64,000 nt of DNA, from assembly GCA_046346965.1 (NCBI GenBank), contig JAXMHB010000003.1, forward strand, positions 228,778 through 292,777, written 5' to 3'. The notes beneath the pieces were generated by a model. The model was not told the DNA's origin and ran no database searches. It saw only the letters and a list, made by a program, of their open reading frames with translations. Positions 5,041 through 55,025 of the stretch are shown piece by piece. Each line of letters starts with the position of its first letter. Position 1 is the stretch's first letter. This DNA comes from Lysobacterales bacterium. Its GTDB lineage: Bacteria > Pseudomonadota > Gammaproteobacteria > Xanthomonadales > SZUA-5. Made by a program: the position numbers and the translations under genes.

Positions 5041-5601
5041 ATGCGAATGAACAAATTGTGGTCCCTGACGCTGGCGACCGCGATGCTGCTGCCGATGGAT
5101 GCGATGGCCGACACCGGCCTGTACATCGACGGCGCCGCAGGTCAAACCTCGGTGGATGATGAGGGCATCAACGACAACGACACCGCCTTCCGCGCGGGCG
5201 TCGGTTATCGCTTCCTGGAGAACTTCGGCGCCGAGCTCGGTTATCTGGACCTCGGCAAGGTCGAGGAATCGCTGGGCGGCGGCAACTCGATCTCGGTGTC
5301 CTCGGACGGTTTCTATGCCGGCGTCGCTGGCAAGATTCCGCTGTATGACGCCAGCACCGGTTTCTACGTCGGCGCCCGCGCCGGCCTGTATTTCTGGGAC
5401 GCCACCGGCCGTCTGCGTCAGGGCACGACCACCGTGCGCCTGGACGACAGCGACAATGACTTCTACGTCGGCGTCAGCGGCGGCTATGACTTCAACGAGC
5501 AGTTCGGTCTGGGCCTGGCCTATGACCGCTACAAGCTCGGTGATGGCGATGCCGACCTGAGCTACAGCACGATCTCGCTGACCGGCGAAGTGCGCTTCTG
5601 A
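5041..5601 (+). CDS. Outer-membrane beta-barrel protein (OmpA-like barrel or OmpW/porin family)
   Basis: Signal peptide followed by alternating aromatic/Gly-rich beta strands. C-terminal residue is aromatic (F). Confidence 0.8.
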   Translation: MRMNKLWSLTLATAMLLPMDAMADTGLYIDGAAGQTSVDDEGINDNDTAFRAGVGYRFLENFGAELGYLDLGKVEESLGGGNSISVSSDGFYAGVAGKIPLYDASTGFYVGARAGLYFWDATGRLRQGTTTVRLDDSDNDFYVGVSGGYDFNEQFGLGLAYDRYKLGDGDADLSYSTISLTGEVRF

Positions 5602-10389: not shown

Positions 10390-11412
10390 ATGCGAGCGTG
10401 GTGTGCTGTCCTACTCTGTGTGCTCTCCCCGTGCGCCGTTCAGGCCCTGAGCCTGAGCAATACGCTGGGGGAGGACCAACGCGCCGAAACCTTGAGCGTC
10501 GAGATCGACGGGCGCGTGGTCGGGCGACTCAAGCTCGACGCCGAGCACCTGCAGGCCACGCTGCGCTTGCCTGCGGGCGCGCGCCGCTACCGGCTACAGG
10601 GAACGGCAGAGATGAGCGATGGCACACGGCTGACGGTGGCGGGCGCCGGGCTGATCGTCTCGGTCGCCGAGATGGACCGCATCGGCGAGGCAGGCCGCGC
10701 CGCGGACGCGCTCGCCGCCTATGAGGATCTGGTCCGCGCGCTGCAGGCGGCGGCGCCGGAGGTCGATCTGTCGGCGCTGCCGTTGACGCGCGGAAGGCCG
10801 GTCAGCGAGGCCGAGTTGGCCGCCGCCGAGCGCCGCCTGGGCACGCGTTTGCCCGCGGGCTATCGCGAGCAGCTGCGGACCCTCGGCGCACTGACGGTGG
10901 GACTGCCCGATGCGCCCAGCGGGCGGCTCTACGGTCCGGATGCGCTGGACACGCTGCAGGCCTGGGTGCTCGCCCGGGCCGCCGAGAACGATTCCAGTCG
11001 CCAGGAGCTGCGCGCAATCGAGGCCTTCATCGGCAAGCGCTTCCGCCCGGCACGCCAGGATCTGGTCCTCGGCGTCTGGGAACGCGACGAACCCACGCTG
11101 GTACGCGCTGGCGAGCGCTGCCCGAGCGGCGAAACACCCTACGCCTTCCCGGAAACCCAATGGGAAGTGCTGATGGGAGCTGGCCTAGACGACAACGCCT
11201 TCATGGGCCTGATCAGCTATGAGGATGACATCGTCGGCGAGACGCAGTGCCTGAGTTTTGATCGGGAACTGGCCTACTCGCTGCACGACCACCTGATCGA
11301 ACTCGGCCGCGACGCGCTCTACGTGATCGGCCCCGACGAAACCCGGATCGCGATCCAGCGGCGCGATATCGATCGGGAGCGTATTTGGTTGGGGCTGACT
11401 GAGGGGGAGTAG
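10390..11412 (+). CDS. Secreted hypothetical protein with a SMI1/KNR4 (SUKH)-like segment
   Basis: Signal peptide MRAWCAVLLCVLSPCAVQA. The central segment ELAAAERRLGTRLPAGYREQLRTLGAL resembles the SUKH/SMI1-KNR4 core motif. Confidence 0.55.
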   Translation: MRAWCAVLLCVLSPCAVQALSLSNTLGEDQRAETLSVEIDGRVVGRLKLDAEHLQATLRLPAGARRYRLQGTAEMSDGTRLTVAGAGLIVSVAEMDRIGEAGRAADALAAYEDLVRALQAAAPEVDLSALPLTRGRPVSEAELAAAERRLGTRLPAGYREQLRTLGALTVGLPDAPSGRLYGPDALDTLQAWVLARAAENDSSRQELRAIEAFIGKRFRPARQDLVLGVWERDEPTLVRAGERCPSGETPYAFPETQWEVLMGAGLDDNAFMGLISYEDDIVGETQCLSFDRELAYSLHDHLIELGRDALYVIGPDETRIAIQRRDIDRERIWLGLTEGE

Positions 11413-12640
11413 GGAATGGAACGGGAAAAGGGAAAAAGGGAAAGGGAAAAAGGAAGAGCGGCGGCCGTTGCAGAGCCCCGTAGGCAGGGTCCTTCGCGTC
11501 CGCGCTGTGCAAGACCGTCCCGTAGGCCGGGTCCTTCGCGTCCGCAGTGTGCAGCTTCGCCGCAGGTTCCCACACGCGAGGCGCCCGGCGCTGTGCTGCG
11601 GCAGGTCTGTCGACCTGGCCGCGCAGGGATCGCGATGGACCTCCGGGGTGTTGCGACCTGCCCGAAAGTGTCTCCCGAGGACCTGCGCAGGGATCTCGAT
11701 GGTGCTGCGAGGGTGTCCCGATACCCTCCCGAGGCTGTCGCGACCTGCCCAAAGGTATCTCGCGAGGACTTGCGCGGGTCTGTCGATGACCTCGCGAGCC
11801 TGTCCCGAGGCCCTGCGCGCATGTCGCGATGTGCTTGCGAGGGTGTCCCGACGTGCTGCGAGCAGATCGCGATGGGCTCGCAGGGGTGGACCTGTGGGCT
11901 TGCGAGGATATCGCGATGAGCTCGCAGCCCCACCGAAGAACCTCGACAGCGTGTCGCGACAGGGTCGTGGCTATGTCGGGACAGCCTCACCGGGTCGTTG
12001 CGATAGGGTCCGCAGCGTATCGCGATAGGCTCGAAAGGTGGTCGGGTGGGGCTCGAAAGGGTGTCGCGACAGGGTCCGCAGGGTATCGCGATATCCACGC
12101 AGGACATCGGGACCTGCGCGCGGGCCCGTCGTGATGGGCTGGCATGCAGGTCCGCAGAGGCGCCGAGGCTGTCGGGAGGGGGCGGCCGGTATAGCCGGGC
12201 AGCGCGATGAGCGTGGTCTGGCGCTCGGCTACCCCGATCCGGAGCGAGTTGTCTTCCGGATGGAAGAGGGAAAAGGAAAAAGGGACAAAGCGCGACCAGC
12301 AAAAGCCGCGGCCGCCGGCGCGATGAATGGCGGTCGCATTAAAGACGCTGCGGCGCGCACGGAGCCGCGCTACATTGCGCCTGGGACGCCGTGAGCCGCC
12401 ACTCCCTTTTTCCCACGGGGCGGGTGGGCAGCGGGGCGATTGGTAGAGAGTGAAAAGTGAAAAGTGAAAAGTGAAAGGAAAAGCCGCGGCCGCCGGCGGA
12501 TCGGACAAGGGTCGCGAGATGAACCCGACTGCGCGCACCGAGCCGCGCTGCGCGACGCTTGCAAGGAACTGTGAAAGGGCAGCGAGCGCTTCACCTTTAA
12601 CTTTTAACTTTTAACTTTTCACTCCATATCCCACCCATCC
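11413..12640. repeat. 1.2 kb non-coding repeat-rich region with several repeat classes. Purine-rich SSRs: (GGAAAAG)n at 11416-11460 and 12262-12290, (GTGAAAA)4 at 12448-12476, (TTTTAAC)3 at 12596-12622. Degenerate tandem units of about 87 and 44 bp. Duplicated blocks of about 150 bp. About 11 phased TCGCGA palindromes
   Basis: Three overlapping spurious ORFs on both strands show no codon-position GC periodicity, unlike flanking genes. All repeats were read directly in the sequence. Confidence 0.7.
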
Positions 12641-13957
12641 TCACCCCACCGGCAACCGCACCACCACCACGCAGCCGCGCGCGTCGGGGCGGTTGGACAG
12701 CGTCAGCGTGCCGCCGTGGTTCTCGGTGATCTGCCGCGCCAGCACCAGACCGACGCCGCTACCGCCGGGTTTGGTCGTGTAGAAGGGCACGAACAAGTTG
12801 TCGGTCTTGGCGAGGCCGGGGCCGTCGTCTTCGATCTCGATCTGTACCCAGTCGTTCTCGGCGTTCAGTCGGATGCGAACGCCGCCATCGGTTTCGAGCG
12901 CGGCTTCGGCGGCGTTCTTGGTCAGGTTGATCAGCGCCTGTTCCAGTTGATCGGGATCGGCATGCAGGCGGATCTCCGGCCAGTCGCCGATGGCAATGCT
13001 GCGGCGCTGTTCCAGCCGGGCGACGCGGCGCAGCAGTCCGGACAGCTCGACCTCCCGCTTGTGCGGCGGCGGCAGGCGCGCCAGTCGGGTGTAGGTGGAC
13101 ATGAAGCGCGTCAGCGACTCGGCGCGATCGCCGATGATGCCGAGCGCGCCCTGGACGTCCTCGCGCCAGTCCTCCGGCAAGGGCTCGCGCGCCACGATGC
13201 CGACTAGCGTGGCCGCCATCGAACGGATCGGCGCCAGCGAGTTATTGAGCTCATGGCCGAGCACGCGGATCAGGCGCTGCCAGGCCTGGCGCTCCTCCTC
13301 ACGCAGCGCGCGCGACAGATCGGTGATCGCCAGCAGTTCGTGCGGGCGACCGCCCTCGCGAAAGGCCGCGCGGCGCAAATCGAAGCTGCCGGCGCCGCCC
13401 GGGAAGGCGGTCTTCAGCGTCGCCGGTGTCTCGGCTTCACAGCAGGCGTCGAGGCCCAGTTCGCGCGCCGTGCGTCCCAGCGCCTGGCTGGCCGGCAGTG
13501 CCAGCAAGCGCTCGCCGGCCGGGTTGATCAGTTTGAGCTGACGCTGATCATCGAGCGCAAAAATGGCGATATCGACGTTCGCCAGCACCTTGGTCAGCAG
13601 CGCGCCCGACTCCTCGACCTTGAGGCGCTGCTCGCGCAGCGTGCTGGCCAGCGCGTTGACCTCCCACAGCACTTCCCCGAGCGCATCGCCGCGCCGCGCC
13701 GAGATGCTGCGCAGACTGTAGTCACCGGCGCGCAGCGCATCGAGCAGATTCACCAGCGTCAGCAAAGGGTGCACGACCTCGCGCCGCAAGCGCCGCCACA
13801 GCCAGGCGGTCAGCGCCACCAGTGCAGCCATCGCCCCGAAACGCAGACCCGGCGTCCCGTCCAGCCGCCACAGGTACACGCAGGCCAGCACCAGCGCCGG
13901 CAGCACCAGCAGCACCGACCAGAGCCCGACCCGCAGCTCGTAGCGCAGGCGGCTCAT
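12641..13957 (-). CDS. Sensor histidine kinase with 2 TM helices, HAMP/PAS, HisKA and HATPase_c domains
   Basis: H-box LGHELNNSLAPI and G-boxes DDGPGL and GGSGVGL. Start chosen at MSRLRYEL. The track ORF extends into the repeat arrays. Confidence 0.85.
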   Translation of the reverse strand: MSRLRYELRVGLWSVLLVLPALVLACVYLWRLDGTPGLRFGAMAALVALTAWLWRRLRREVVHPLLTLVNLLDALRAGDYSLRSISARRGDALGEVLWEVNALASTLREQRLKVEESGALLTKVLANVDIAIFALDDQRQLKLINPAGERLLALPASQALGRTARELGLDACCEAETPATLKTAFPGGAGSFDLRRAAFREGGRPHELLAITDLSRALREEERQAWQRLIRVLGHELNNSLAPIRSMAATLVGIVAREPLPEDWREDVQGALGIIGDRAESLTRFMSTYTRLARLPPPHKREVELSGLLRRVARLEQRRSIAIGDWPEIRLHADPDQLEQALINLTKNAAEAALETDGGVRIRLNAENDWVQIEIEDDGPGLAKTDNLFVPFYTTKPGGSGVGLVLARQITENHGGTLTLSNRPDARGCVVVVRLPVG

Positions 13958-13969
13958 TGGAGCGCCCAG

Positions 13970-14328
13970 AAGCCGAGGGCCCGAAAGCCGAGGGCACGAG
14001 GGCACGAGGGCACGCAAAAGCCGAGGGCACGAGGGCACGAGGGCACGAGGGCACGCGAAAGCGCAGGCACAAGCGGAAGCAACAGCAGTCCTGCCGCATG
14101 CGGATGCAGACCTGCCGTCGGCACCGCCGCCCACAACGCCATGCTGCGATCACCGCGGGGAGCCGCAAGGTCCCCCGGCACCCGCTTCTGCGTGCCCTCG
14201 TGCCCTCGTGCCCTCGTGCCCCGGCTTCTGCGTGCCCTCATGCCCTCATGCCCTTCTGCCTCCGCCTCTGCGTGCCCTCGTGCCCTCATGCCCTTCTGCC
14301 TCCGCCTCTGCGTGCCCTCGTGCCCTCG
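13970..14328. repeat. Inverted arrays of tandem 8-mers filling the intergenic region. (GAGGGCAC)n units are on the left arm (13970-14063) and (GTGCCCTC)n units on the right arm (14184-14328), around a unique core of about 120 bp
   Basis: The left units AAAGCCGAGGGCACGAGGGCACGAGGGCACGC are exact reverse complements of the right units. Fills the gap between the regulator stop and the kinase start. Confidence 0.75.
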
Positions 14329-14338
14329 CAAATCCGCT

Positions 14339-15721
<1,383 letters not shown>

Positions 15722-15932
15722 GCGGGTGTCCGTTGGTGCAGGAATGGAGCGCGCTACGCAGTTTACGTGCCAGGCCGCAGACAGCACGCGCTGGCACGGG
15801 CAGCGCACAACAGTGTCCGATTCCGGACAGCAAAAGCGATCAGCCGTCCGCCTTCATACAACGGTCGTCAGGCCGTCACGCCGCTGTTGCCTGGGCTGCG
15901 CACAGTCCGCGCCATCGCCAGAGGAGCATCTC

Positions 15933-17645
15933 ATGCACAGTCTGCAGACCGAGATCATCCAGCGCTGGCCGCATTGGTTCGCCGGTGCCCGCGCGCGTCT
16001 GACCCGCCCTCTGCTCGATCGCCTGCTGCGCTACACGCGGCTGGATCGGGCCGAGGCCTTTCTGGCGGCGCATCCGCATCTGCGCGGTCTGGAGTTTGTC
16101 GAGGGCGTGCTGCGCGATCTGGATGTGCGTTACCAGGTGGACGATCTGGAGCGCCAACGGATTCCGCTCAGCGGCGCATGCGTGATCGTCGCCAACCATC
16201 CGCTCGGTGGACTGGATGCGCTGGCGCTGCTGAAGCTGGTGGGCGATCTGCGCCGCGATGTGCACATCGTCGCGAATGACTGGCTGTGCCGCCTGCAGCC
16301 GCTCAGGGAGCTGTTGCTGCCAGTGCGCGTATTCGGCGGGCGCAGCGGCGGCGCGCAACTCGATGCCATCGACGCGGCGCTGGCGCAGGGCGCCGCAGTG
16401 ATCGTATTCCCCGCCGCCGAGGTCTCGCGCCTGTCCTGGCGCGGCATCCGCGACCGTGCCTGGCGCCAGGGTTTCGTCCGCTTTGCCGCACGCCATCAAG
16501 CGCCGGTGCTGCCGGTGCGCGTGCAGGCACGCAACTCCATCGGTTTTTACGCCGGCGCAGCGCTCGCCAGTCCGCTCGGGACGGCGCTGCTGCCGCGCGA
16601 GCTGTACGCGCCGGGTGGCCGGCGTATCGAGATGCGCATCGCCCGCCCGTGGTCGCTGCCGGCCGACGCCGATCAAGGCGGCCAGGCCCGCGGCATCGCG
16701 GCGCGCGTGCAGCAGGCGGTCGAACGCCTGCGGCGCGGACGCGATATGCTGCCGGCGCGCGCCGAAGCCATCGCCCATCCGCTGCACCGCGATGCGCTGG
16801 TCAGCGCCATCGCCACCCTTGATGTGCTCGGTGAGACCGCCGACGGCAAGCGCATCTTGCTGGCGCAGCCGGGCGCGCCGTCGATCGTGCTGCGCGAAAT
16901 CGCGCGCCTCCGTGAACTGACCTTTCGCGCGGTCGGCGAGGGCACCGGGACGGCACTGGACTGGGATCGCTTCGATGCCTGGTACGACCAGATCGTGCTG
17001 TGGGACAGCACTGCCCAGCGCATCGTCGGCGCCTACCGGGTGGGACGCAGTGCCGCGATCCTGGCCCAGCACGGCAAGGCCGGGCTGTACACACACACCT
17101 TGTTCGACTTCGATCCGCGCCTGGACGAAGTACTCGGCAGCGGCCTGGAACTCGGTCGCAGCTTCGTCGTGCCCGACTACTGGGGCAGCCGCAGCCTCGA
17201 CTACCTGTGGTACGGCATTGGTGCCTACCTGCGCCGCTACCCCGATCTGCGCTGGCTGTTTGGCACCGTGTCGATCAGCGCCGCATTGCCGCGACCTGCA
17301 CGCGATCACTTGGTGGGTTACTACCAGCAGCACCACGGCGGCGATTCCGGGCTGGTGCGTGCGCACCATCCCTACCCCACACCACCGCCGCACTACGCCG
17401 AACTCGACAGTACCCAGGCCTTCCGCGTGCTGCGCGACAACCTGCAGCAATTCGGCGCGCGCGTGCCCACTCTGTACAAGCAATACACCGAGCTGTGCGA
17501 GCCGGGCGGCGCGCGCTTCCTGGCGTTTGGTGTCGACCCCGATTTCAACGACGCCGTGGACGGGTTGATCCTCGTCGATCTGCAGCAAGTGACGCCGCGC
17601 AAGCGCGAGCGCTATCTGGTTGCGCGCACGGAGCTGACGGCATGA
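15933..17645 (+). CDS. Two-domain acyltransferase: N-terminal PlsC/OlsA-like O-acyltransferase and C-terminal OlsB-like N-acyltransferase (OlsF-like, ornithine-lipid synthase type)
   Basis: HPLGGLDALAL acyltransferase motif in the N-terminal half. The OlsB/hemolysin-like region (GAYRVGRS...GLYTHTLFDFD) is in the C-terminal half. GAGGAG RBS 6 nt before the ATG at 15933. Confidence 0.6.
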   Translation: MHSLQTEIIQRWPHWFAGARARLTRPLLDRLLRYTRLDRAEAFLAAHPHLRGLEFVEGVLRDLDVRYQVDDLERQRIPLSGACVIVANHPLGGLDALALLKLVGDLRRDVHIVANDWLCRLQPLRELLLPVRVFGGRSGGAQLDAIDAALAQGAAVIVFPAAEVSRLSWRGIRDRAWRQGFVRFAARHQAPVLPVRVQARNSIGFYAGAALASPLGTALLPRELYAPGGRRIEMRIARPWSLPADADQGGQARGIAARVQQAVERLRRGRDMLPARAEAIAHPLHRDALVSAIATLDVLGETADGKRILLAQPGAPSIVLREIARLRELTFRAVGEGTGTALDWDRFDAWYDQIVLWDSTAQRIVGAYRVGRSAAILAQHGKAGLYTHTLFDFDPRLDEVLGSGLELGRSFVVPDYWGSRSLDYLWYGIGAYLRRYPDLRWLFGTVSISAALPRPARDHLVGYYQQHHGGDSGLVRAHHPYPTPPPHYAELDSTQAFRVLRDNLQQFGARVPTLYKQYTELCEPGGARFLAFGVDPDFNDAVDGLILVDLQQVTPRKRERYLVARTELTA

Positions 17646-18436
17646 GCCCGGCCGAGACCAGCGCGGCCACCTTCATCTCGGACCTGCATCTGGGATCGAC
17701 GAACTGCCATGCCGAAGCGCTCTGTGATTTCCTGGCACACGTGCGCACCGAGAAGCTGTATCTGGTGGGCGATGTGGTCGACCTGTGGTGGATCAGCGCA
17801 CGCCGGGCGCGCTTTGATCGTCACCAGCATCAGGTGCTGCAGCAACTGCACCGGCTGGCGCGGGTGGGCACCGAACTGATCTACATCCCCGGCAACCACG
17901 ACCGCCCGCTGCGCGATCTCTGTGGTCTGGTGCTGCCGCGGATGACGGTGCGCCGGCAGGCGATTCACCGGGCCGCCGACGGTCGCCGCTATCTGGTCAC
18001 CCACGGCGATGATTTCGATGCCCATGTGCAGCGCGGCGACTGGCAGGAGTGGCTGGGCGATCGGCTGTACGACTACATCCTGGCGGGCAATCGGCTGACC
18101 CATCAGATGCGCCAGCGCCTGGGACTGCGCTACTGGTCACTGGCCGATTTCATCAAGCGCCAGAGCAGCCAGGCCGAGCGCTACATCGCCCGTTTCCGTG
18201 AGGCCGCGCTGCGGGCAGCCGCCGCCCGCGGGCTGGCCGGCGTGATCTGCGGCCATATCCATCGCCCGGCGCTGGAACAGATCGACGGGCTGATCTACGC
18301 CAACGACGGCGATTGGGTCGAAAGCATGACCGCGCTGCGCGAAGGCCCGAACGGACAACTGGCGCTGCTGCGCTGGACCGGCCGGCACGAACTGCTGGCC
18401 GAGATGCAGGCAGCGCCGCTGCTGCTGGCGGCTTGA
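17642..18436 (+). CDS. Calcineurin-like metallophosphoesterase (LpxH-like UDP-2,3-diacylglucosamine hydrolase paralog)
   Basis: FISDLHLG, GDVVDLW and PGNHD motifs. The ATG overlaps the upstream stop (ATGA), implying an operon with the acyltransferase. Confidence 0.75.
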   Translation: MSPAETSAATFISDLHLGSTNCHAEALCDFLAHVRTEKLYLVGDVVDLWWISARRARFDRHQHQVLQQLHRLARVGTELIYIPGNHDRPLRDLCGLVLPRMTVRRQAIHRAADGRRYLVTHGDDFDAHVQRGDWQEWLGDRLYDYILAGNRLTHQMRQRLGLRYWSLADFIKRQSSQAERYIARFREAALRAAAARGLAGVICGHIHRPALEQIDGLIYANDGDWVESMTALREGPNGQLALLRWTGRHELLAEMQAAPLLLAA

Positions 18437-18540
18437 AGCGGCCTCAGACGACGACGACTCCACGCGGCCCTGCGCGCTGCGCCTGTTAGCATCGGCTCGC
18501 CCACTGGCGCCAGACGCCAGCCCGCTGACACGGAGACGCT

Positions 18541-19803
18541 ATGGCTTCCGGCAACCGCCTGACGATGTACATCCTGATCGCGCTGGCACTGGGCGTGGTC
18601 TGTGGACTCAGCATCCACCACTACGCTGCCGATCCGGCGTCGACGGTGCAGTACTTCTCGCTGATCACGACGATCTTCCTGCGCCTGATCAAGATGATCA
18701 TCGCGCCGCTGGTGTTTTCCACGCTGGTGGTCGGCATCGCCAAGATGGGCGATGTCGGCACCGTCGGCCGGGTCGGCGTCAAGGCAATGGTGTGGTTCCT
18801 CGGCGCCTCGCTGGTGTCGCTGACGCTGGGGCTGCTGCTGGTCAACTTCTTCCAGCCGGGGGCGACGCTGAATCTGCCGCTGCCGGATGCCAACGCCAAG
18901 TCGGAGATCGTTGCCACCGGCATGAGCCTGGCCGAGTTCGTCAACCATCTGGTGCCGACCAGCATGTTCGACGCCATGGCGCGCAACGAGATTTTGCAGA
19001 TCGTGGTGTTCTCGGTGTTTTTCGGCGTCGGCTGCTCGGCGGTGGGCGCCAAGGCCAAAGTGCTGGTCGACGCGCTGGAAGGCCTGTCCTACGTGATGCT
19101 GCGCGTCACCATGCTGGTGATGTGGTTCGCGCCGGTGGCGGTATTTGCCGCGGTGTCAGCGGCGCTGGCAAAGAGTGGCGCCGGTCTGCTGGTTACCTAC
19201 GGCAAGTTCATGGGCCAGTTCTACTTCGGCATTGTGCTGCTGTGGGTGCTGCTGTTTCTGGGCGCGTGGGCAATGGTCGGCAAACGCGCGATCGCGCTGT
19301 TCAAAGCCGTGCGTGAGCCCACGCTGCTCGCCTTTGCCACTGCATCCAGCGAGGCGGCCTATCCGAAGACGCTGGCGCAGCTGGAGAAATTCGGCTGCAG
19401 CAATCGGGTGGCATCGTTCGTGCTGCCGCTCGGCTACTCCTTCAATCTGGACGGCTCGATGATGTACTGCACCTTCGCGGTGCTGTTCATCGCCCAGGCC
19501 TATGGCATCGAGCTCAGCGCCGGCCAGCAGCTGACCATGCTGCTGATTCTGATGGTCACCAGCAAAGGCATGGCCGGCGTGCCGCGCGCCTCGCTGGTGG
19601 TGATCGCCGCGACGCTGGCGCAGTTCAACATCCCCGAGGCCGGTTTGCTGCTGCTGCTCGGCATCGACCATTTCCTCGACATGGCGCGCTCGGCCACCAA
19701 TGTAATCGGCAACAGCGTCGCCACCGCGGCTGTCTCCGCCTGGGATGGTCAGTTGCGCAGCGAGGCCGAGGTGCAGGCGGAGCTGAAGCAGGCCACGGAC
19801 TGA
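18541..19803 (+). CDS. dctA: Dicarboxylate/amino-acid:cation symporter (DctA/GltP family)
   Basis: Full-length DAACS homology with about 8-10 TM segments. Confidence 0.9.
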   Translation: MASGNRLTMYILIALALGVVCGLSIHHYAADPASTVQYFSLITTIFLRLIKMIIAPLVFSTLVVGIAKMGDVGTVGRVGVKAMVWFLGASLVSLTLGLLLVNFFQPGATLNLPLPDANAKSEIVATGMSLAEFVNHLVPTSMFDAMARNEILQIVVFSVFFGVGCSAVGAKAKVLVDALEGLSYVMLRVTMLVMWFAPVAVFAAVSAALAKSGAGLLVTYGKFMGQFYFGIVLLWVLLFLGAWAMVGKRAIALFKAVREPTLLAFATASSEAAYPKTLAQLEKFGCSNRVASFVLPLGYSFNLDGSMMYCTFAVLFIAQAYGIELSAGQQLTMLLILMVTSKGMAGVPRASLVVIAATLAQFNIPEAGLLLLLGIDHFLDMARSATNVIGNSVATAAVSAWDGQLRSEAEVQAELKQATD

Positions 19804-20731: not shown

Positions 20732-20873
20732 GTCCCGAGTCCCGAGTCCCGAGTCCCGAGTCCCGAGTCCCGAGTCCCGAGTCCCGAGTCCCGAGTCCCG
20801 AGTCCCGAGTCCCAGTCCCAAGTCCCAGTCCCGGGTCCCGAGTCCCGGGTCCCGGGTCCCGAGCCCAGGGTCC
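20732..20873. repeat. Heptanucleotide microsatellite (GAGTCCC)n. Ten perfect units at 20739-20808, flanked by degenerate units
   Basis: Read directly in the sequence. Lies about 110 bp upstream of the Grx-fusion gene start. Confidence 0.85.
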
Positions 20874-20983
20874 CGCCCTTTCACCCACCCGGCCAGCGCT
20901 TCCTTAACACCTCGGTCACGCGCAGTCGCGGCGGCGGCGCTATCCTGATGCGATTGCTTGCTGATCTCAAAAGGATGCTGACC

Positions 20984-25431: not shown

Positions 25432-26362
25432 CACGCAGCACCGCCAGCAGCGCGCGCAGATCCTGCGGAATCGGCGCACTGACGCGCACTTCCTCGCCGT
25501 TGTCTGGATGCGCAAACGCCAGCGTCTCGGCGTGCAGCGCTTGCCGCTTGAACTGTCGCAGCGCGTCTTTCAGGGTGTCGCTGGCGCCGGCCGGCATGCG
25601 CAACGATCCGCCATAGAGTGGATCACCGACGATCGGCCAGCGCAGATGCGCCATGTGCACACGGATCTGGTGCGTGCGCCCGGTTTCCAGCGCCACCCGC
25701 AGCAGCGTGTGCGCGGCATAGCGCTCGACCACCCGATAGTGGCTGACCGCCGGCTTGCCGGACTCGACCACCGCCATGCGCAGGCGATCAGTGGGATGCC
25801 GGCCTATCGGCGCATCGACGGTGCCGCCAGCGATGACCTTGCCGAACACCACCGCCAGATACTCGCGATGGATCTCGCGACGCGCCATCGCTTTGGTCAG
25901 TGTGTGGTGCGCCTCCAGCGTGCGCGCGACCACCAGCGCCCCGCTGGTGTCCTTGTCGAGGCGATGGATGACGCCGGCGCGCGGCAACGCTGCCAGCGCC
26001 GGATCGCGATGCAGCAGGGCATTGACCAGCGTGCCGGTGCGATTGCCCGCCCCCGGATGCACCACCAGTCCGGGCGGCTTGTTGACGACAAAGAAAGCCG
26101 GATCCTCGGCGAGCAGATCGAGCGCGATGTCCTCCGGCGCGTCAGCGAGCACCACCTCGAGTTCGGCCTCCAACTCCACCGTCTCGCCGCCGACCACGGC
26201 ATCGCGCGGACGCGGCTGTTTGCCATCCACACGCGCCTTGCCGTCCTTGATCCAGGCGGTCAGCTTGGAGCGCGAGAATTGCGGAAAGGTCTGCGCCAGC
26301 GCGGCGTCGAAACGCAGGCCAGCCGCGGACAGCGGAATTGCAGCGGTCAAAATCTGGGGCAT
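25424..26362 (-). CDS. rluD: 23S rRNA pseudouridine synthase RluD
   Basis: S4 domain plus RluA-family catalytic motif HRLDKDTSG. Start [10 protein letters not shown]. The track ORF is over-extended. Confidence 0.9.
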
Positions 26363-26464
26363 CGTAGGCTCATCAAGCGCGGCTGAACCGCATGACCGGC
26401 GCAACAGACAGCGCCGCCGGCCCGGTAGGCTATCATCGCCGGCCTTGCTTGCCGGAAATGGGCT

Positions 26465-27280
26465 ATGAGGCTGACTGTGCAGAAGCTGACGCGTGCGCTG
26501 GTGGTGCTGTTGACTGTGCTGATGCTGGCGGCCTGCGGCGGCAAGGGGGTGGAGGAAGAAACTGAAACTCTGCCGGTGGATCAGATGTACTCCGAGGCCA
26601 AGTCCTCGATGGACAGCGGCAACTTCGAGCGTGCCGTGCGCTACTACAAGCGCCTGGTCTCGCGTTTCCCCTTCGGTGACTATGCCGAACAGGCGCAGCT
26701 GGACCTGGCCTACTCGCAGTACAAGCGCAATGAGTACGACGACGCCATCTCCACGGTCAATCGCTTCATCAAGACCTACCCGGCGCACCCCAAGATCGAC
26801 TACGCCTACTACCTGCGCGGCCTGGTGAACTTCGACCGCAACCGCAGCTACATCGATCGCATCCTGCCGAGCCAGGCCGGCAATCGTGACACCGAGGCGG
26901 CGCGCCAGTCCTTCAACGACTTTTCCGAAATGCTGCGGCGCTATCCGCAGAGCCGCTATGCCGCCGATGCGCGGCAGCGCATGGTGTATTTGAAGAACGA
27001 TCTCGCCAACTACGAACTGACCATCGCGCGCTACTACTTCCGTCGCGGCGCTTGCGTGGGCGCGGCCAATCGCGCCAAGTACATCCTCGAGAACTACCAG
27101 CAGTCCGAGCAGATCCCGGATGCGCTGGCGATCCTGGTGCAGAGCTACGACGCCCTCGGGCAGCCCGAACTGGCCGCCGACGCCAAACGCGTGCTGGTCG
27201 CCAACGCCCCGGATCATCCTTACCTCACCGGCGTGCGCGAGAACGAGCGCCACTGGTGGAACTGGGTGTGGCCCTTCTAA
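26465..27280 (+). CDS. bamD: Outer-membrane protein assembly factor BamD
   Basis: Lipobox LAAC, TPR lipoprotein and YfiO homology. Divergent from rluD as in E. coli. Confidence 0.9.
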
Positions 27281-32570: not shown

Positions 32571-32913
32571 GACACGAATTCCTTTTCTTGATGAGGTAAC
32601 ACTCTCCCAGTGCGCTCCACGCAGGGTCAGCGGGTGCCAGTCGGCGGATCTGAGGCACTTGCCAGCGGCGCAGGAGTCCGGGGGCGTCGATGCACGACGG
32701 GAGAGGACTCAGGCGGCGCTGGCAGGCCGCAAATCGTCTGAGCGGACACGCAGGCCAACCCTGCGTTGTGAGCCTGCTTCCACGGCCTGACACCCCTGCC
32801 CGGCGATGTCACCCGTATCCACAGGGCTCACTGGAGCCCAAGGGCATGGCCGCCTCGCGGCGACCACACTGCCGAGCTTGCCCCCTCGGCGGGGTGTTGC
32901 AGATGGCCTTGCG

Positions 32914-32986
32914 GCCTAACGGCGGGAGTCGAACCCGCTACCCAGTCATTCTCAGTGACTTGCTCTACCGGATGAGCTACGTTGGT
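32914..32986 (-). tRNA. tRNA-like sequence A, possible pseudo-tRNA. Class-I cloverleaf with anticodon loop CTGAGAA (anticodon GAG) and two mismatches in the acceptor stem
   Basis: D-arm GCTC-ATCCGGTA-GAGC and T-arm GCGGG-TTCGACT-CCCGC were read manually. Bacterial tRNA-Leu(GAG) should be class II, so this looks non-canonical. No CCA is encoded. Confidence 0.4.
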
Positions 32987-32995
32987 CTTGCGACC

Positions 32996-33066
32996 GGTGG
33001 ATCGCCATGGAGTCGAACCATGTCCTCCCGCGTCCGGCGGGCGCTCTACCGCTGAGCTAGCGAACC
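32996..33066 (-). tRNA. tRNA-like sequence B, probable pseudo-tRNA. Good D-arm, T-arm and acceptor stem, but the anticodon arm is only 15 nt, with a 5-nt loop or a non-canonical 7-nt loop (C33)
   Basis: GGTTCGC-TA-GCTCAGCGGTAGAGC...CATGGTTCGACTCCATG-GCGATCC-ACC was read manually. One T-T mismatch in the acceptor stem. Confidence 0.35.
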
Positions 33067-53209: not shown

Positions 53210-53971
53210 ATGGATCGCGAGCGCGAGACGCAGGCCTTCATCCGGCCCTGGATCGAACGCGAGCCCGCGCTGTGGCTGGCGGCGCAGTTTGCCGGAGACG
53301 CGCAGGCGCGAGCGCAGTTTCTGGCTTTGCAAGTGCTGATTCGGGAGTTGCTCGAAGCCAGTGTCGCCGTCGGCGGCGAGCGCGTCACCGCGGCCAAATT
53401 GGGCTGGTGGCAGGACGAAGCGCTGTTGTGGCAGCAGGGCCATGGACGCCACCCACTGCTGCAGGATGTCGATGGCCCGGTTTGGGGCAGCGCCTTGTTG
53501 CAGTTGCTGCCCGCGCTGGCGGCTTGGGTGCAGGCGCCGCCGCCCGCCACGCTCGATCAGGCCTGGGCCTCACTGCGGCCACTGGCAGCCGTGCTGGCGG
53601 GCTGGCCAGGCGCCGGCAATGCGCAGACGGAGCTCTGGCAAGGCTTGGGCTTTGCCATCGCGCTGCGACTGTCCACGCAGGCGCGGGCGCCGCTGGCCAC
53701 CGTCATCCCGATGGACGTGTGGGCCCGCCACGGCGTGCGGCGCTCGGCCGTGGAGGGTCTGACGGACGCGCAGCGTGATGCCCTGCTCGCCGACTGCGCA
53801 AGACGGGTGCCGCCGTGGCCAAACGGCGGTCGCCAGCCGGCGTTGTCGGCGCTGGTGGCACTGGAACAGCGCTGGCTGCGCCAAGCGAGCAGCGGGCGCG
53901 TGCGTGGCCGGCTGGGCCCGACCGCCGCATGGACGGCGTGGCGCGCCGCCCGGCGCGCGCTCAAAGGCTGA
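53210..53971 (+). CDS. Hypothetical protein (Trp-rich, alpha-helical)
   Basis: The ORF fills the interval. No recognisable motif. Confidence 0.45.
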   Translation: MDRERETQAFIRPWIEREPALWLAAQFAGDAQARAQFLALQVLIRELLEASVAVGGERVTAAKLGWWQDEALLWQQGHGRHPLLQDVDGPVWGSALLQLLPALAAWVQAPPPATLDQAWASLRPLAAVLAGWPGAGNAQTELWQGLGFAIALRLSTQARAPLATVIPMDVWARHGVRRSAVEGLTDAQRDALLADCARRVPPWPNGGRQPALSALVALEQRWLRQASSGRVRGRLGPTAAWTAWRAARRALKG

Positions 53972-54917
53972 GCCGGCGCAATTCGGGCGGCTGCTCGGCG
54001 CGCTCCCACACCTCGTCGAAATAACGCTTGAGCTCGTTGCGGCGCGGCGGATAGTAAAGATCGCCTTCGGCCTCGGGGCGATCGCCAAAACTGCGGTAGA
54101 GAAAGCCGCCGGCATCATTGAGCACGAAGGCCGCTGCGTACTGCAAATCCTCCTGCACCGGGCGACGGATCTGGATCACGCTGCTGAGGCGCTGGGCCAG
54201 ATCGAGCAATCGATGGCCGTCGCGCACGGCCCGCGCGGTGTCCTGCACCAAGATGCGCAGGCTGGCACCACGGCCGGAAAGCGCGACGCGGCGACAGGCC
54301 TCCAGGATTTCCGCCCGCTCGTACAAGCCCGGCTCCAGATCGCGAGTGTAGATGCAGATCTCGTGGCGTGCCGCGCCAAGCAGCGCTTGCACCGCGTCCG
54401 CCAACTCGGCGCTGCGACTCGCACTCAAGCGCTGCGGCTGCCCGCTCGGCGGTGGCTGATCGCGCACAGGCGCCGGCTGCGCGGTTGGCAGCGTCAGCAC
54501 CATGGTGCGGTGCGGAATCTCGCACTCCAGATACTCCGGGCCCTCGGCGACGAAGCCGGCCTTCTCGTAGAAGGGAATGGCGTGTGTCTGCGCGTGCAAG
54601 GACAGTCGCGACATCCCGCGCGCCTGCGCGCGTTCGATCAGAAAGCGCAACAAGGCCGCCCCAACGCCGGCACTGCGCCACTCGCGCATGACGGCCATGC
54701 GGCCGATGCGGCCGTCGGGCGTCAGCCGTGCAGTGCCTATCGGTGCGCGATCGGGCGTGCGCGCCAGCGCATGCTCGGAGATCGGATCGTCGCTGTCCCA
54801 CTCCTCACTCTCCGGCACCCGCTGCTCGACGATGAACACGGCGGTACGCACGCGCTTCAGATCCTCGACGTCCACCGTCCACACGGCCGGTTCGACGTAG
54901 TAGCGGTCTTCGATCAT
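53961..54917 (-). CDS. GNAT-family N-acetyltransferase with a C-terminal extension of about 160 aa of unknown function
   Basis: GNAT motif A region (RMAVMREWRSAGVGAALL) in the N-terminal half. The track ORF (730 aa) is over-extended antisense into the acuI gene. Confidence 0.65.
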   Translation of the reverse strand: MIEDRYYVEPAVWTVDVEDLKRVRTAVFIVEQRVPESEEWDSDDPISEHALARTPDRAPIGTARLTPDGRIGRMAVMREWRSAGVGAALLRFLIERAQARGMSRLSLHAQTHAIPFYEKAGFVAEGPEYLECEIPHRTMVLTLPTAQPAPVRDQPPPSGQPQRLSASRSAELADAVQALLGAARHEICIYTRDLEPGLYERAEILEACRRVALSGRGASLRILVQDTARAVRDGHRLLDLAQRLSSVIQIRRPVQEDLQYAAAFVLNDAGGFLYRSFGDRPEAEGDLYYPPRRNELKRYFDEVWERAEQPPELRRLSL

Positions 54918-55025
54918 GACACTGCTCGGCGACGGAACTGACGCAAGCATAGACCGCGGCACCCGGCACTCGAAACGCGGCGGCCGCGGGTAGACTGCGG
55001 CCCAGAGTCCTGCAGGAGTGTTGCG

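What the first reader, a model, noticed from the sequence alone, without database searches (positions are those of the whole stretch)
11413..12640. 1.2 kb repeat-rich non-coding region between two convergent genes
Genes here are tightly packed, with typical gaps of 20-100 bp, yet this 1.2 kb has no ORF with coding signature. A sample of 20 codons in the two longest ORFs (11319-12302 on the minus strand, 11468-12028 on the plus strand) gave position-3 GC of 55-60%. Real genes in this window show about 85-90%. The region holds purine-rich SSRs rare in GC-rich genomes: (GGAAAAG)-like runs at 11416-11460 and 12262-12290, (GTGAAAA)4 at 12448-12476, and the related (TTTTAAC)3 at 12596-12622. It also has degenerate tandem units of about 87 bp (11650-11910) and two copies of a block of about 150 bp sharing AAGCCGCGGCCGCCGGCG...GCGCGCACCGAGCCGCGCT (12300-12440 and 12476-12590). 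Candidate roles are a structured non-coding RNA locus, a decayed repeat-protein gene, or a recombination or phase-variation hotspot.
Basis: partly seen in the sequence, partly recalled or inferred. Interest (0 to 1): 0.6.

Follow-up and report, generated by a model that had tools for sequence, protein, structure and literature searches.

The report
Hairpin-forming repeat cluster between genes
A 1.2-kb gene-free spacer in a Lysobacterales genome is built from hairpin-forming repeats: stem-loops with short-repeat arms, of a kind already described in xanthomonads, and a strictly phased 26-unit array of TCGCGA palindromes that also occurs in unrelated soil bacteria; it is most likely structural or terminator DNA, and the array's role is still open.

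Summary
Window 11413-12640 lies between convergent genes: a SUKH/SMI1-like gene (+) and an NtrC-type histidine kinase (HK, -). It has no coding signal, no protein homologues and no Rfam match.

It has three kinds of parts.
1. Purine-rich short-repeat (SSR) tracts in three direct copies.
2. A 177-nt stem-loop (12448-12624) starting 16 nt after the kinase stop codon. Its arms are (AGTGAAA)4 and the inverse (TTTAACT)3TTTCACT. The closest relative (HK 76% aa) has a hairpin at the same position with a different heptamer, changed compensatorily on both arms.
3. An array (11630-12177) of 26 units with period 21.7 bp and higher-order periods 43/87/130. Its TCGCGA-type core is conserved and its flanks vary. 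Its two halves are mutually inverted.

Inverted heptamer SSR pairs with about 4 units are already published for Xanthomonas. The array appears undescribed. Arrays with the same grammar occur in two metagenome contigs, one from Thermoanaerobaculia, in different gene contexts. In one of them the array is an indel bracketed by 81-nt direct repeats.

A decayed repeat-protein gene is excluded, and phase variation is unsupported. Most likely this is extragenic hairpin DNA at two gene 3' ends, acting as terminator or RNA stabiliser. A phased protein-binding array remains possible.

The parts
10390..11412 (+). Left flanking gene: secreted SUKH/SMI1_KNR4-like protein, 340 aa. Its stop codon directly abuts the region.
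   Evidence: GC3 0.83. Weak Pfam PF09346 hit. The identical protein is found in 3 Logan contigs. Homologues of 39-99% identity exist.
11416..11458 (+). SSR1: homopurine tract GGGAAAAGGGAAAAAGGGAAAGGGAAAAAGG, with four G3 runs and mirror symmetry. It is the first of three direct copies of the module 'purine SSR + GCSGCGGCCG'.
   Evidence: TRF. Direct-repeat family D4. BLAST to 12260-12314 (74.5% over 55 nt) and to 12452-12492 (79% over 43 nt). Identical in L081-083 and nearly identical in the sister taxon L207.
11477..11553 (+). Two 42-bp direct repeats, 91% identical. The sister taxon has a single copy.
   Evidence: Family D9. Alignment with L207 shows a 42-nt gap.
11630..12177 (.). Phased palindromic-unit array: 26 units with mean spacing 21.68 bp (each 21 or 22; four of the 26 positions have a degenerate core and were placed by interpolation), an ~10.85-bp sub-period and higher-order periods 43/87/130. 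The core is (g)tgTC[G/C]CGA. The left half (to ~11889) carries TCCCGA and CTGCGAG. The right half carries the complements TCGGGA and CTCGCAG, so the array is one large imperfect palindrome centred at ~11891.
   Evidence: core 1.2-2.0 bits against flanks 0.04-1.35 in the left half; minus-strand self-BLAST E = 2e-8; fold z = -7.1 and -5.5. Related arrays in L131 and L206.
12260..12293 (+). SSR2: second purine tract, a direct copy of SSR1. It forms the left arm of a decayed hairpin element.
12298..12447 (.). Block A: a diverged tandem copy (offset ~178 bp) of the interior of the hairpin element. It includes a terminator-like stem plus T-run on the minus strand (12323-12306) and a pyrimidine remnant CCCTTTTTCCC (12404-12414) complementary to SSR2.
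   Evidence: D8 and D11. 72% over 107 nt, E = 8e-10. Terminator scan. Local fold -21.6 kcal/mol. The whole block does not fold better than shuffles (z = 0.05).
12448..12624 (-). SSR-armed hairpin element, 16 nt downstream of the kinase stop codon. The arms are 12448-12484 (GAGTGAAAAGTGAAAAGTGAAAAGTGAAAGGAAAAGC) and 12588-12624. The 103-nt interior is block A'. Read on the kinase strand the order is A-rich arm, GC-rich interior, U-rich arm.
   Evidence: I4: 37 nt, 86% complementary. MFE -78.3 kcal/mol, z = -5.66. The same element is present with 0 SNPs and one 1-nt indel in L084-086. A positional counterpart with compensatory heptamer change occurs in L001.
12641..13957 (-). Right flanking gene: sensor histidine kinase (PAS, HisKA, HATPase_c). 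It lies downstream of a sigma-54 response regulator (14339-15808).
   Evidence: Pfam. The exact 438-aa product is on record. Relatives conserve the RR-HK pair.

Best explanation
The region is a non-coding spacer at the shared 3' ends of two convergent genes. It has filled up with hairpin-forming extragenic repeats of two classes.

(a) SSR-armed stem-loops. These have two inverted runs of about four heptamers around a GC-rich interior. One intact copy sits right after the kinase stop codon. One decayed tandem copy and one further purine-SSR copy lie upstream of it.

(b) A minisatellite of quasi-palindromic 21.7-bp units with a TCGCGA core, about 12 units in one orientation and about 13 in the other.

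Inferred mechanism of origin: replication slippage builds the tandem runs. Intrastrand template switching copies changes from one arm to the other. Whole blocks are gained or lost as indels flanked by direct repeats.

Inferred function: on the kinase transcript the 177-nt element reads as A-rich arm, GC-rich interior with a terminator-like stem, then U-rich arm. It would act as a terminator and 3'-exonuclease block. The array adds a very stable structure that insulates the two convergent transcription units. This is analogous to REP/BIME clusters.

Shown: the anatomy, absence of coding, folding potential, conservation of the hairpin with compensatory arm changes, and turnover of the array.

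Inferred: transcription, termination or stabilisation, and the slippage/template-switch origin.
For: No coding signal and no homologues.

Hairpin: 37-bp stem, z = -5.66. It starts 16 nt after the kinase stop. In L001 (HK 76% aa) a hairpin sits immediately after the HK stop with arms (GTGAGTA)4/(TACTCAC)4, MFE -109.8, z = -7.6. Relative to AGTGAAA/TTTCACT, two heptamer positions changed on both arms in all units.

Within the species the non-coding stretch 12131-12640 carries 2 SNPs per 896 compared bases, against 25 per 1317 third-codon positions of the kinase gene (Fisher p = 2e-4; strains not independent).

A terminator-like site and pyrimidine tracts lie on the kinase strand.

The same two repeat classes co-occur in other genomes (L131, L206, L228).

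Inverted heptamer-repeat pairs with a preferred length of four units, near stop codons and mostly transcribed, are published for Xanthomonas (PMC4692102).

All three arrays fold far better than shuffles (z = -7.1, -7.65, -7.5).

Array turnover: the start of the array is unalignable with the sister taxon although the flanking gene is 92% identical. The array is absent in relatives with SUKH at 74% identity or HK at 72-76% identity.
Against: No transcript data exist, and the simple scan found no promoter and only one weak terminator-like site.

Neutral slippage does not obviously explain three things. The TCGCGA core is far better conserved than the flanks. All of the roughly 70 spacings in three arrays from different phyla are 21 or 22 bp. 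Arrays in different gene contexts share unit sequence.

Unlike REP/BIME, no isolated unit occurs elsewhere in the 64-kb window or in 144 kb of Lysobacterales loci.

Hairpins at the HK 3' end or in the RR-HK spacer occur in only 7 of 80 and 9 of 68 related operons, so a position-specific function is not general.
Confidence: 0.5

Rival explanations
1. The array is a DNA-level protein-binding platform. About 26 (or ~50 half-period) TCGCGA-type palindromic sites lie on one face of the helix, with period 21.7 = 2 x 10.85 bp. They would nucleate a cooperative nucleoprotein filament, in the manner of a centromere (sopC: 12 x 43 bp), iterons, or a nucleoid-organising or gyrase-type site. The binding protein is encoded elsewhere.
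For: The core is much more conserved than the flanks. Spacing is strictly 21 or 22 bp in three arrays from different lineages. The 43-44-bp higher-order unit contains 14-16-bp perfect palindromes in L131 (GYGTCTCGCGAGACRC). The grammar is shared across a Lysobacterales MAG and a Thermoanaerobaculia contig. Short TGTCGCGAT iteron clusters exist in phage contigs, one next to a primase gene.
Against: No rep, par, integrase or candidate DNA-binding gene was found among the 16 genes checked, which span 0.6-19.8 kb of the window; the stretch from ~19.8 kb to the window end was not annotated, because the second annotation call failed. There is no similarity to plasmids, and phage hits share only the core word. 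Unit order is not conserved with the sister taxon. The array is dispensable in relatives. The higher-order-repeat history can inflate apparent core conservation.
Confidence: 0.2
2. The array, and perhaps the hairpin modules, are non-autonomous mobile or recombinationally inserted cassettes. They land at gene 3' ends and duplicate the target. The region is an accretion of such insertions with no host function.
For: In L206 the array is bracketed by 81-nt direct repeats (93.8% identical) that equal the last 78 nt plus stop of ychF. The related genome L233 (87-89% nt identity) has ychF abutting the next gene with no array. The window array is flanked by direct copies of the purine-SSR module. In L131 and L206 the arrays begin 5-25 nt after a stop codon. 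The site is a synteny breakpoint. Arrays of related sequence occur in different contexts and phyla.
Against: There are no terminal inverted repeats or short target duplications typical of MITEs, and no transposase or integrase nearby. No flanking direct repeat occurs in L131. There is only one copy per 64 kb. The ychF body is missing in L206, so that rearrangement is more complex than a clean insertion.
Confidence: 0.15
3. The region encodes an independently transcribed structured non-coding RNA, such as a long hairpin RNA or an sRNA.
For: Fold z-scores are very negative on both strands. The plus strand of the array folds 60 kcal/mol better than the minus strand.
Against: There is no Rfam match even at E <= 1 and no promoter-like site. 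The structure follows trivially from palindromic tandem units. Array sequence is not conserved with the sister taxon. Block A does not fold better than shuffles.
Confidence: 0.07
4. The region is a decayed repeat-protein gene, or an SSR-driven phase-variation switch.
For: Long stop-free ORFs exist, and perfect heptamer SSRs are present.
Against: The period of 21.7 bp is not a multiple of 3. GC3 is flat. There are no homologues. The SSRs lie between two 3' ends. Their lengths are invariant in every other same-species contig that covers them (three contigs for SSR1, three for the hairpin arms, one for SSR2), and SSR1 is also nearly unchanged in the sister taxon.
Confidence: 0.03

Closest known systems
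Heptameric SSRs and their inverted pairs in Xanthomonas (GGGAATC repeats; Rehm et al. 2015, PMC4692102)
   Same: The host order is the same (Xanthomonadales/Lysobacterales). The unit is 7 nt with about four units preferred. The repeats are intergenic and lie within 50 bp of stop codons. Two runs often occur on opposite strands close together and are able to form stem-loops. SSR1 has four G3 tracts like their G-quadruplex motif. The (GTCCCGA)21 tract at 20732 reads GGGACTC on the other strand, one base from GGGAATC.
   Different: Here each locus uses its own heptamer or octamer (AGTGAAA, GGGAAAA, GAGGGCAC). The hairpin arms have no G-tracts, so a quadruplex cannot explain the four-unit length. 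The arms enclose a ~100-nt interior and the whole module is tandemly duplicated. Similar pairs also occur in Acidobacteriota loci.
REP/BIME clusters and REPINs (E. coli, Pseudomonas; e.g. PMC3116915)
   Same: They are extragenic, often at gene 3' ends or between convergent genes. The units are imperfect palindromes of ~20-40 nt, in arrays with alternating unit types and orientations. They form stable RNA/DNA hairpins and have proposed roles in mRNA stabilisation, termination and gyrase/IHF binding (established knowledge).
   Different: REPs are dispersed in hundreds of copies per genome. Here no unit occurs outside the single array in 64 kb. No RAYT transposase was seen. The spacing is strictly 21 or 22 bp.
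Dispersed bacterial minisatellites (mycobacterial MIRU, pneumococcal BOX with its 45-nt boxB tandem module)
   Same: The units are ~40-50 bp and tandemly repeated in intergenic regions. Copy structure varies between close relatives. The same unit family occurs at different loci (established knowledge).
   Different: The core is a 6-bp palindrome with an 11-bp sub-period. The two halves of the array are inverted. The family is seen across phyla but with only one locus per sampled stretch.
Plasmid centromere and iteron arrays (F sopC: 12 x 43 bp, each with a 16-bp inverted repeat; ~22-bp-phased iterons)
   Same: The 43-44-bp and 21-22-bp phasing, the palindromic core in each unit, and the 8-13 higher-order copies (sopC and iteron facts from established knowledge).
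   Different: The context is chromosomal housekeeping genes, with no par or rep gene among the 16 genes checked between 0.6 and 19.8 kb of the window. There is no plasmid similarity. Units are degenerate and the array is not conserved in close relatives.

Membership tests
Xanthomonad heptameric SSR / inverted SSR pair (PMC4692102) | Tandem 7-nt unit with about four units | tested here: met
   (AGTGAAA)4.0 and (TTTAACT)4.0. L001 arms have 3.9 units.
Xanthomonad heptameric SSR / inverted SSR pair (PMC4692102) | Intergenic, within ~50 bp of a stop codon | tested here: met
   The right arm ends 16 nt from the kinase stop. SSR1 starts directly after the SUKH stop.
Xanthomonad heptameric SSR / inverted SSR pair (PMC4692102) | Two runs on opposite strands in close proximity | tested here: met
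   I4: 37-nt arms, 86% complementary, 103 nt apart.
Xanthomonad heptameric SSR / inverted SSR pair (PMC4692102) | G3 tract in each unit (GGGNATC), able to form a G-quadruplex | tested here: not met
   The hairpin arms AGTGAAA/AGTTAAA have no G3. Only SSR1 (four G3 runs) and the distant (GTCCCGA)21 tract fit.
REP/BIME | Imperfect palindromic extragenic unit of 20-40 nt in clusters | tested here: met
   Units such as CTGCGAGCAGATCGCGATGGGCTCGCAG. 26 units, between convergent genes.
REP/BIME | Many dispersed copies per genome | tested here: not met
   nhmmer with a unit profile and a phase scan find no copy outside the array in the 64-kb window or in 144 kb of Lysobacterales loci. The rest of the genome was not available.
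REP/BIME | Cognate RAYT (IS200/IS605-like) transposase in the genome | not testable with these tools
   Only 64 kb of the 409-kb contig is available. Attempts to extend beyond the window failed.
Plasmid/phage centromere or iteron array | Phased direct repeats with a protein-binding palindrome | tested here: inconclusive
   Phasing and palindromic cores are present. Binding was not testable.
Plasmid/phage centromere or iteron array | Adjacent par or rep gene, on a mobile replicon | tested here: not met
   The checked neighbours are pgk, a phosphatase, SUKH, the two-component system, an acyltransferase and a transporter. The stretch from ~19.8 kb to the window end was not annotated because one search failed. 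There is no plasmid match.
CRISPR array | Near-identical 23-47-nt repeats separated by unique spacers of similar length | tested here: not met
   Units are contiguous (period 21.7), only ~50-55% identical, and have no spacers.
MITE | Terminal inverted repeats plus short target-site duplication and multiple copies | tested here: not met
   The 177-nt element has 37-nt inverted arms. Its flanks (GGTAGA / CATATC) are not duplicated and no other copy is in the window.
Intrinsic terminator | GC-rich stem-loop followed by a U-run on the transcribed strand | tested here: inconclusive
   One consensus match lies on the kinase strand at 12323-12306, no more than expected by chance. A GC-rich interior followed by a U-rich arm is present in the hairpin, but the local stem is weak (-13 kcal/mol).
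Any Rfam RNA family | Covariance-model match | tested here: not met
   0 matches at E <= 1 over 10500-13500. Only two tRNAs in the whole window.
Repeat-protein gene (decayed) | Repeat period a multiple of 3, codon-position bias, homologues | tested here: not met
   Period 21.7. GC by codon position 0.66/0.66/0.66. No homologues.
Phase-variable contingency SSR | SSR in a promoter or 5' coding region, with copy number polymorphic among strains | tested here: not met
   The SSRs lie between two 3' ends. Copy numbers are identical in every other same-species contig that covers them: L081-083 for SSR1, L084-086 for the hairpin arms, L084 for SSR2.

The most novel reading that the evidence does not exclude
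The TCGCGA-core arrays form an undescribed cross-phylum class of small non-coding cassettes. Their defining features are a 21.7-bp phase and 43/87/130-bp higher-order repeats. They occur in a Lysobacterales MAG, a Thermoanaerobaculia contig and a third unassigned contig. Under this reading they insert at gene 3' ends with long target duplications. They would serve as phased binding platforms for an unidentified palindrome-recognising protein, for example a nucleoid-organising, segregation or anti-invader factor. The stereotyped 4-5-unit SSR-armed hairpins would be a second product of the same repeat-generating machinery.
Probability: 0.15. Interest if true: 0.7.

Novelty: new variant of a known kind. 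Interest (0 to 1): 0.45.

Why it matters
If the hairpin modules act as 3'-end terminators or stabilisers, then the published xanthomonad heptamer repeats are not primarily G-quadruplex devices. They would be a general, sequence-independent class: about four units per arm, any heptamer, also found in Acidobacteriota. That would give them a testable RNA-level role.

The phased TCGCGA arrays are the more unusual part. A conserved 6-bp palindrome at two-helical-turn spacing is shared between phyla. It is gained as an indel with 81-nt flanking duplications. That points either to an unknown DNA-binding factor or to an unknown way of spreading minisatellites. Either answer bears on how extragenic repeats arise and move in bacteria.

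A practical point: all six short-read contigs covering the region stop inside or at its edge, so features like this are systematically missing from metagenome assemblies.

Tried and rejected
- Rfam at E <= 1 over the region: nothing.
- Plasmid collection, blastn: nothing.
- Protein search with the 327-aa pseudo-ORF and with a pseudo-ORF of the L131 array: nothing. Arrays are not represented among predicted proteins, and this route to more family members failed.
- Genome-collection scan with the kinase. The best relatives are only 72-76% identical. RR-HK is conserved, but SUKH/pgk is not downstream, and there is no DNA similarity to the region.
- Metagenome scan with the SUKH protein: no relative.
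- The generic three-core pattern in metagenomes mostly returned unrelated 21/22-bp tandem repeats. Only L131 and L206 share the grammar. L094 is a perfect 21-bp repeat lying within long ORFs, so its 83% match was discounted as low-complexity.
- Viral scan: short TGTCGCGA iteron clusters with no sequence relation to the array. Kept as a lead only.
- Restriction-site decoy or avoidance idea: TCGCGA is not avoided outside the array (34 observed against 34.8 expected).
- Heptamer origin of the 21.7-bp unit: there is no 7- or 14-bp autocorrelation.
- DGR-like reading of the 81-nt duplicate in L206: the mismatches are not adenine-specific, and no reverse-transcriptase gene was identified in L206 (the flanking ORFs have no family match).
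- Conserved hairpin position across all related operons: only 9 of 68 and 7 of 80.
- Annotation of the two ORFs beside the L206 array with Pfam, PADLOC, NCBIfam and PHROGs: nothing.
- Extending the window along its 409-kb NCBI contig. SecY returned only short contigs, and the left-edge ORF is not on record.
- Literature searches for the array motif found nothing relevant.
Full report
**Context**

The window comes from an NCBI metagenome-assembled genome labelled 'Lysobacterales bacterium', on a contig of 409,420 bp. Its pgk is MFO1493884.1.

The finding lies between two convergent genes:
- A 340-aa secreted protein with a weak SUKH/SMI1_KNR4 match (10390-11412, +).
- A PAS/HisKA/HATPase histidine kinase (HK, 12641-13957, -). 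It follows a sigma-54 response regulator (RR) on the same strand.

The checked neighbours, between 0.6 and 19.8 kb of the window, are ordinary chromosomal genes: pgk, a phosphatase, a sulfatase, an acyltransferase and a dicarboxylate symporter. No rep, par or integrase gene is among them. A second annotation call covering 19.8-31 kb failed, so the rest of the window was not annotated.

Yes.
- GC at codon position 3 is 0.56-0.69 for every ORF inside the region, against 0.83-0.88 for real genes.
- None of the three longest ORFs tested has a Pfam hit.
- The 327-aa ORF has no homologue in 5.8 billion proteins.
- Rfam finds nothing even at E <= 1.
- Within the 64-kb window the GGGAAAA-type tract and the 20-mer shared by the two ~150-bp blocks occur only here, and the TATCGCGAT unit motif is enriched here (11 matches, 9 of them inside the region, against 1.9 expected).

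Three corrections matter:
- The '87-bp units' are a higher-order repeat of a 21.7-bp unit. Autocorrelation peaks fall at 11, 22, 43, 65, 87, 108 and 130.
- That array is twice as long as reported, running from 11630 to 12177.
- (TTTTAAC)3 is the reverse-complement arm of (GTGAAAA)4.

**Anatomy, left to right**

1. SSR1 (11416-11458) is a homopurine tract with four G3 runs. It is followed by GCGGCGGCCG.
2. Two 42-bp direct repeats lie at 11477-11553.
3. The array has 26 unit positions in strict register from 11630 to 12172. Twenty-two carry a recognisable TC[G/C]CGA-type hexamer. Four (11781, 11889, 11933, 12151) are degenerate and were placed by interpolation.
   - Every spacing is 21 or 22 bp, with mean 21.68.
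   - In the left half, four core positions are invariant (2.0 bits), while flank columns carry 0.04-1.35 bits.
   - The left half carries TCCCGA and CTGCGAG. The right half carries the complements TCGGGA and CTCGCAG.
   - Minus-strand self-BLAST is significant (E = 2e-8).
   - The array folds as one giant hairpin centred near 11891, with z = -7.1 on the plus strand and -5.5 on the minus strand.
4. SSR2 (12260-12293) plus block A (12298-12447) are a diverged tandem copy, at offset ~178 bp, of the next element (72% over 107 nt, E = 8e-10). A pyrimidine remnant complementary to SSR2 lies at 12404-12414.
5. The intact 177-nt element (12448-12624) has 37-nt arms that are 86% complementary, with MFE -78 kcal/mol and z = -5.7. 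It ends 16 nt from the kinase stop codon.

SSR1, SSR2 and the left arm are three direct copies of one module: a purine SSR followed by GCSGCGGCCG.

**The SSR-armed hairpin is a conserved structure and a known kind**

The closest relative found is L001, with the kinase 76% identical.
- It has a hairpin immediately after the kinase stop, with arms (GTGAGTA)4 and (TACTCAC)4 around a ~114-nt interior (MFE -109.8, z = -7.6).
- Compared with AGTGAAA/TTTCACT here, two heptamer positions differ (AA to GT). Their partners differ compensatorily (TT to AC) in every unit of both arms.
- The same pair of genomes also shares an SSR-armed hairpin in the RR-HK spacer. Here it is (CGAGGGCA)10 with (CGTGCCCT)17 at 13974-14328. 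In L001 it is (GGCACGC)4 with (GCGTGCC)5.

Three other strains of the same species (L084-086, 99.3-99.5% identical) carry the element with no SNP and one 1-nt indel. The adjacent kinase gene has 7-10 synonymous differences. Pooled, there are 2 SNPs per 896 non-coding bases against 25 per 1317 third-codon positions (p = 2e-4). The strains are not independent, so this is suggestive only.

Rehm et al. 2015 (PMC4692102) described heptamer repeats in Xanthomonas with these properties:
- location within 50 bp of stop codons;
- mostly transcribed;
- 70-75 cases per genome of two runs on opposite strands that could form stem-loops.

The element here fits that description, except that its arms lack the G-tracts on which their quadruplex interpretation rests.

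A TRF-based screen found about 24 further inverted 6-8-mer SSR pairs in 0.78 Mb of mostly Acidobacteriota loci. Each has its own unit, typically 4-5 units per arm. Their position is not generally conserved. Only 9 of 68 RR-HK spacers and 7 of 80 kinase 3' flanks have an inverted repeat of at least 20 nt.

**The array belongs to a small family that appears undescribed**

A metagenome scan for three phased cores mostly returned unrelated 21/22-bp repeats. Two contigs, however, have the same grammar.
- L131 3574-3970 has periods 43, 87 and 130. Its units alternate gTGTCGCGATCTCC and GYGTCTCGCGAGACRC.
- L206 3145-3672 has a 130-bp higher-order repeat with 3.3 copies.

All spacings in both arrays are again 21 or 22 bp. 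Pairwise BLAST links the window to L206 (69% over 186 nt, E = 1e-7) and L131 to L206 (71% over 169 nt, E = 4e-11). Internal repetition inflates these E-values. An alignment of 30 double units shows the shared consensus. All three arrays fold with z of about -7 to -7.7.

L206 proteins fall in 90%-identity clusters with Thermoanaerobaculia MAG proteins. The family therefore spans at least two phyla.

The gene contexts differ:
- Here the array lies between SUKH and the kinase, which are convergent.
- In L131 it starts 5 nt after the LigD stop and lies upstream of a co-directional LolA-like gene.
- In L206 it sits next to unannotatable ORFs.

A unit profile (nhmmer) and a phase detector find no further copy in the window, in 144 kb of Lysobacterales loci, or in the other ~1.6 Mb held.

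**Turnover**

A sister taxon (L207: SUKH 91% aa, 92.3% nt, third positions 85.6%) has SSR1 and the start of the array.
- Identity is 92.8% over 11413-11513 and 81.5% over 11556-11650. Inside the array the two become unalignable.
- It has one copy of the 42-bp repeat instead of two.

A relative with SUKH at 74% identity has a 47-nt gap to a different convergent gene. Kinase relatives at 72-76% lack the array.

In L206 the array is bracketed by 81-nt direct repeats (93.8% identical) consisting of the last 78 nt plus stop codon of ychF. The related genome L233 (87-89% nt identity) has ychF abutting the next gene with no array. The ychF body is missing in L206, and 3 kb of lower-GC DNA lies beyond, so the event was not a clean insertion.

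All six Logan contigs that reach the region end inside it or at its edge.

**Interpretation**

I commit to the following reading. This is a non-coding accretion of hairpin-forming extragenic repeats at the common 3' end of two convergent genes.
- The 177-nt element is most likely the 3'-end structure of the kinase operon, acting as terminator and exonuclease block.
- The array is a palindromic-unit minisatellite, analogous to BIME or MIRU. At most it adds a structural barrier.

The steps shown are the anatomy, the absence of coding, the fold potential, the compensatory conservation and the turnover. Transcription, termination and the slippage/template-switch origin are inferred.

The main unexplained facts are the strong core conservation, the exact two-turn phasing across about 70 units in three genomes, and the sharing of unit sequence across phyla and contexts. 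These keep two rivals alive: a phased protein-binding platform, and a mobile non-coding cassette.

A decayed repeat-protein gene is excluded. An SSR phase-variation switch is not supported by the strains sampled.

**Verdict**

This is a new variant of known kinds of extragenic repeats. The SSR hairpins are already described in xanthomonads, and the TCGCGA array family appears undescribed. Interest is moderate.

Noticed in passing
window 20732-20875: A (GTCCCGA)x21 microsatellite lies in the spacer about 109 nt upstream of a glutaredoxin-like ORF starting at 20984 (identified by reading the N-terminal sequence only, not by a family search). On the other strand it reads (GGGACTC)n, one base from the published xanthomonad G-quadruplex heptamer GGGAATC. 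GTCCCGA is also the core of three array units.
   Followed up: partly
window 13974-14055 and 14182-14328: The RR-HK intercistronic spacer is almost entirely an inverted pair of 8-mer SSRs, (CGAGGGCA)10 and (CGTGCCCT)17. It starts 11 nt after the regulator stop and ends 17 nt before the kinase start. L001 has (GGCACGC)4/(GCGTGCC)5 at the same place (L001 5857-5997).
   Followed up: partly
L026-L077 (Acidobacteriota and other loci) and L228 107-183, 2083-2159: Inverted pairs of 6-8-mer SSRs are common in these soil-bacterial loci (~24 in 0.78 Mb). Each has its own unit and typically 4-5 units per arm. The stereotyped arm length is independent of G-content.
   Followed up: partly
L206 3065-3145 and 3782-3862: 81-nt direct repeats (the 3' end of ychF) bracket the TCGCGA array. 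The ychF body is absent, and 3 kb of lower-GC DNA with two ORFs that match no Pfam, PADLOC, NCBIfam or PHROG family lies to the left. A third 34-nt ychF-3'-like piece lies at 5489-5522, at another synteny break.
   Followed up: partly
L228 15993-16164: A different 21-bp palindromic-unit array, (GCGATCGGACATCGCACGAGT)x8 with 43/64-bp higher-order periods, lies in an intergenic region of a Thermoanaerobaculia genome. That segment is replaced in L206.
   Followed up: no
L131 1183-1354: A nearly loop-less long hairpin made of (GTTCTTAG)~10 and (CTAAGAAC/AACCAAG)~10 lies between divergent genes, on the same contig as the TCGCGA array.
   Followed up: no
L003 1-289: An 88-bp tandem repeat (3.3 copies, 93% identity) starts with AAAAGCCG. 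This word also opens blocks A and A' of the finding and occurs in the RR-HK spacers.
   Followed up: no
L216 1879-1998; L220 337-486; L223 922-1176: Phage contigs carry clusters of TGTCGCGA(T) iterons at 11- or 21-bp spacing. The L216 cluster lies directly 3' of a primase/helicase gene.
   Followed up: partly
window 32913-33066 and other gaps (17645-18541, 25515-26465, 53971-55026): Other intergenic gaps of about 1 kb exist in the window. One holds tRNA-Leu and tRNA-Ser. The others showed no tandem repeats at TRF score >= 50 and were not examined further.
   Followed up: no
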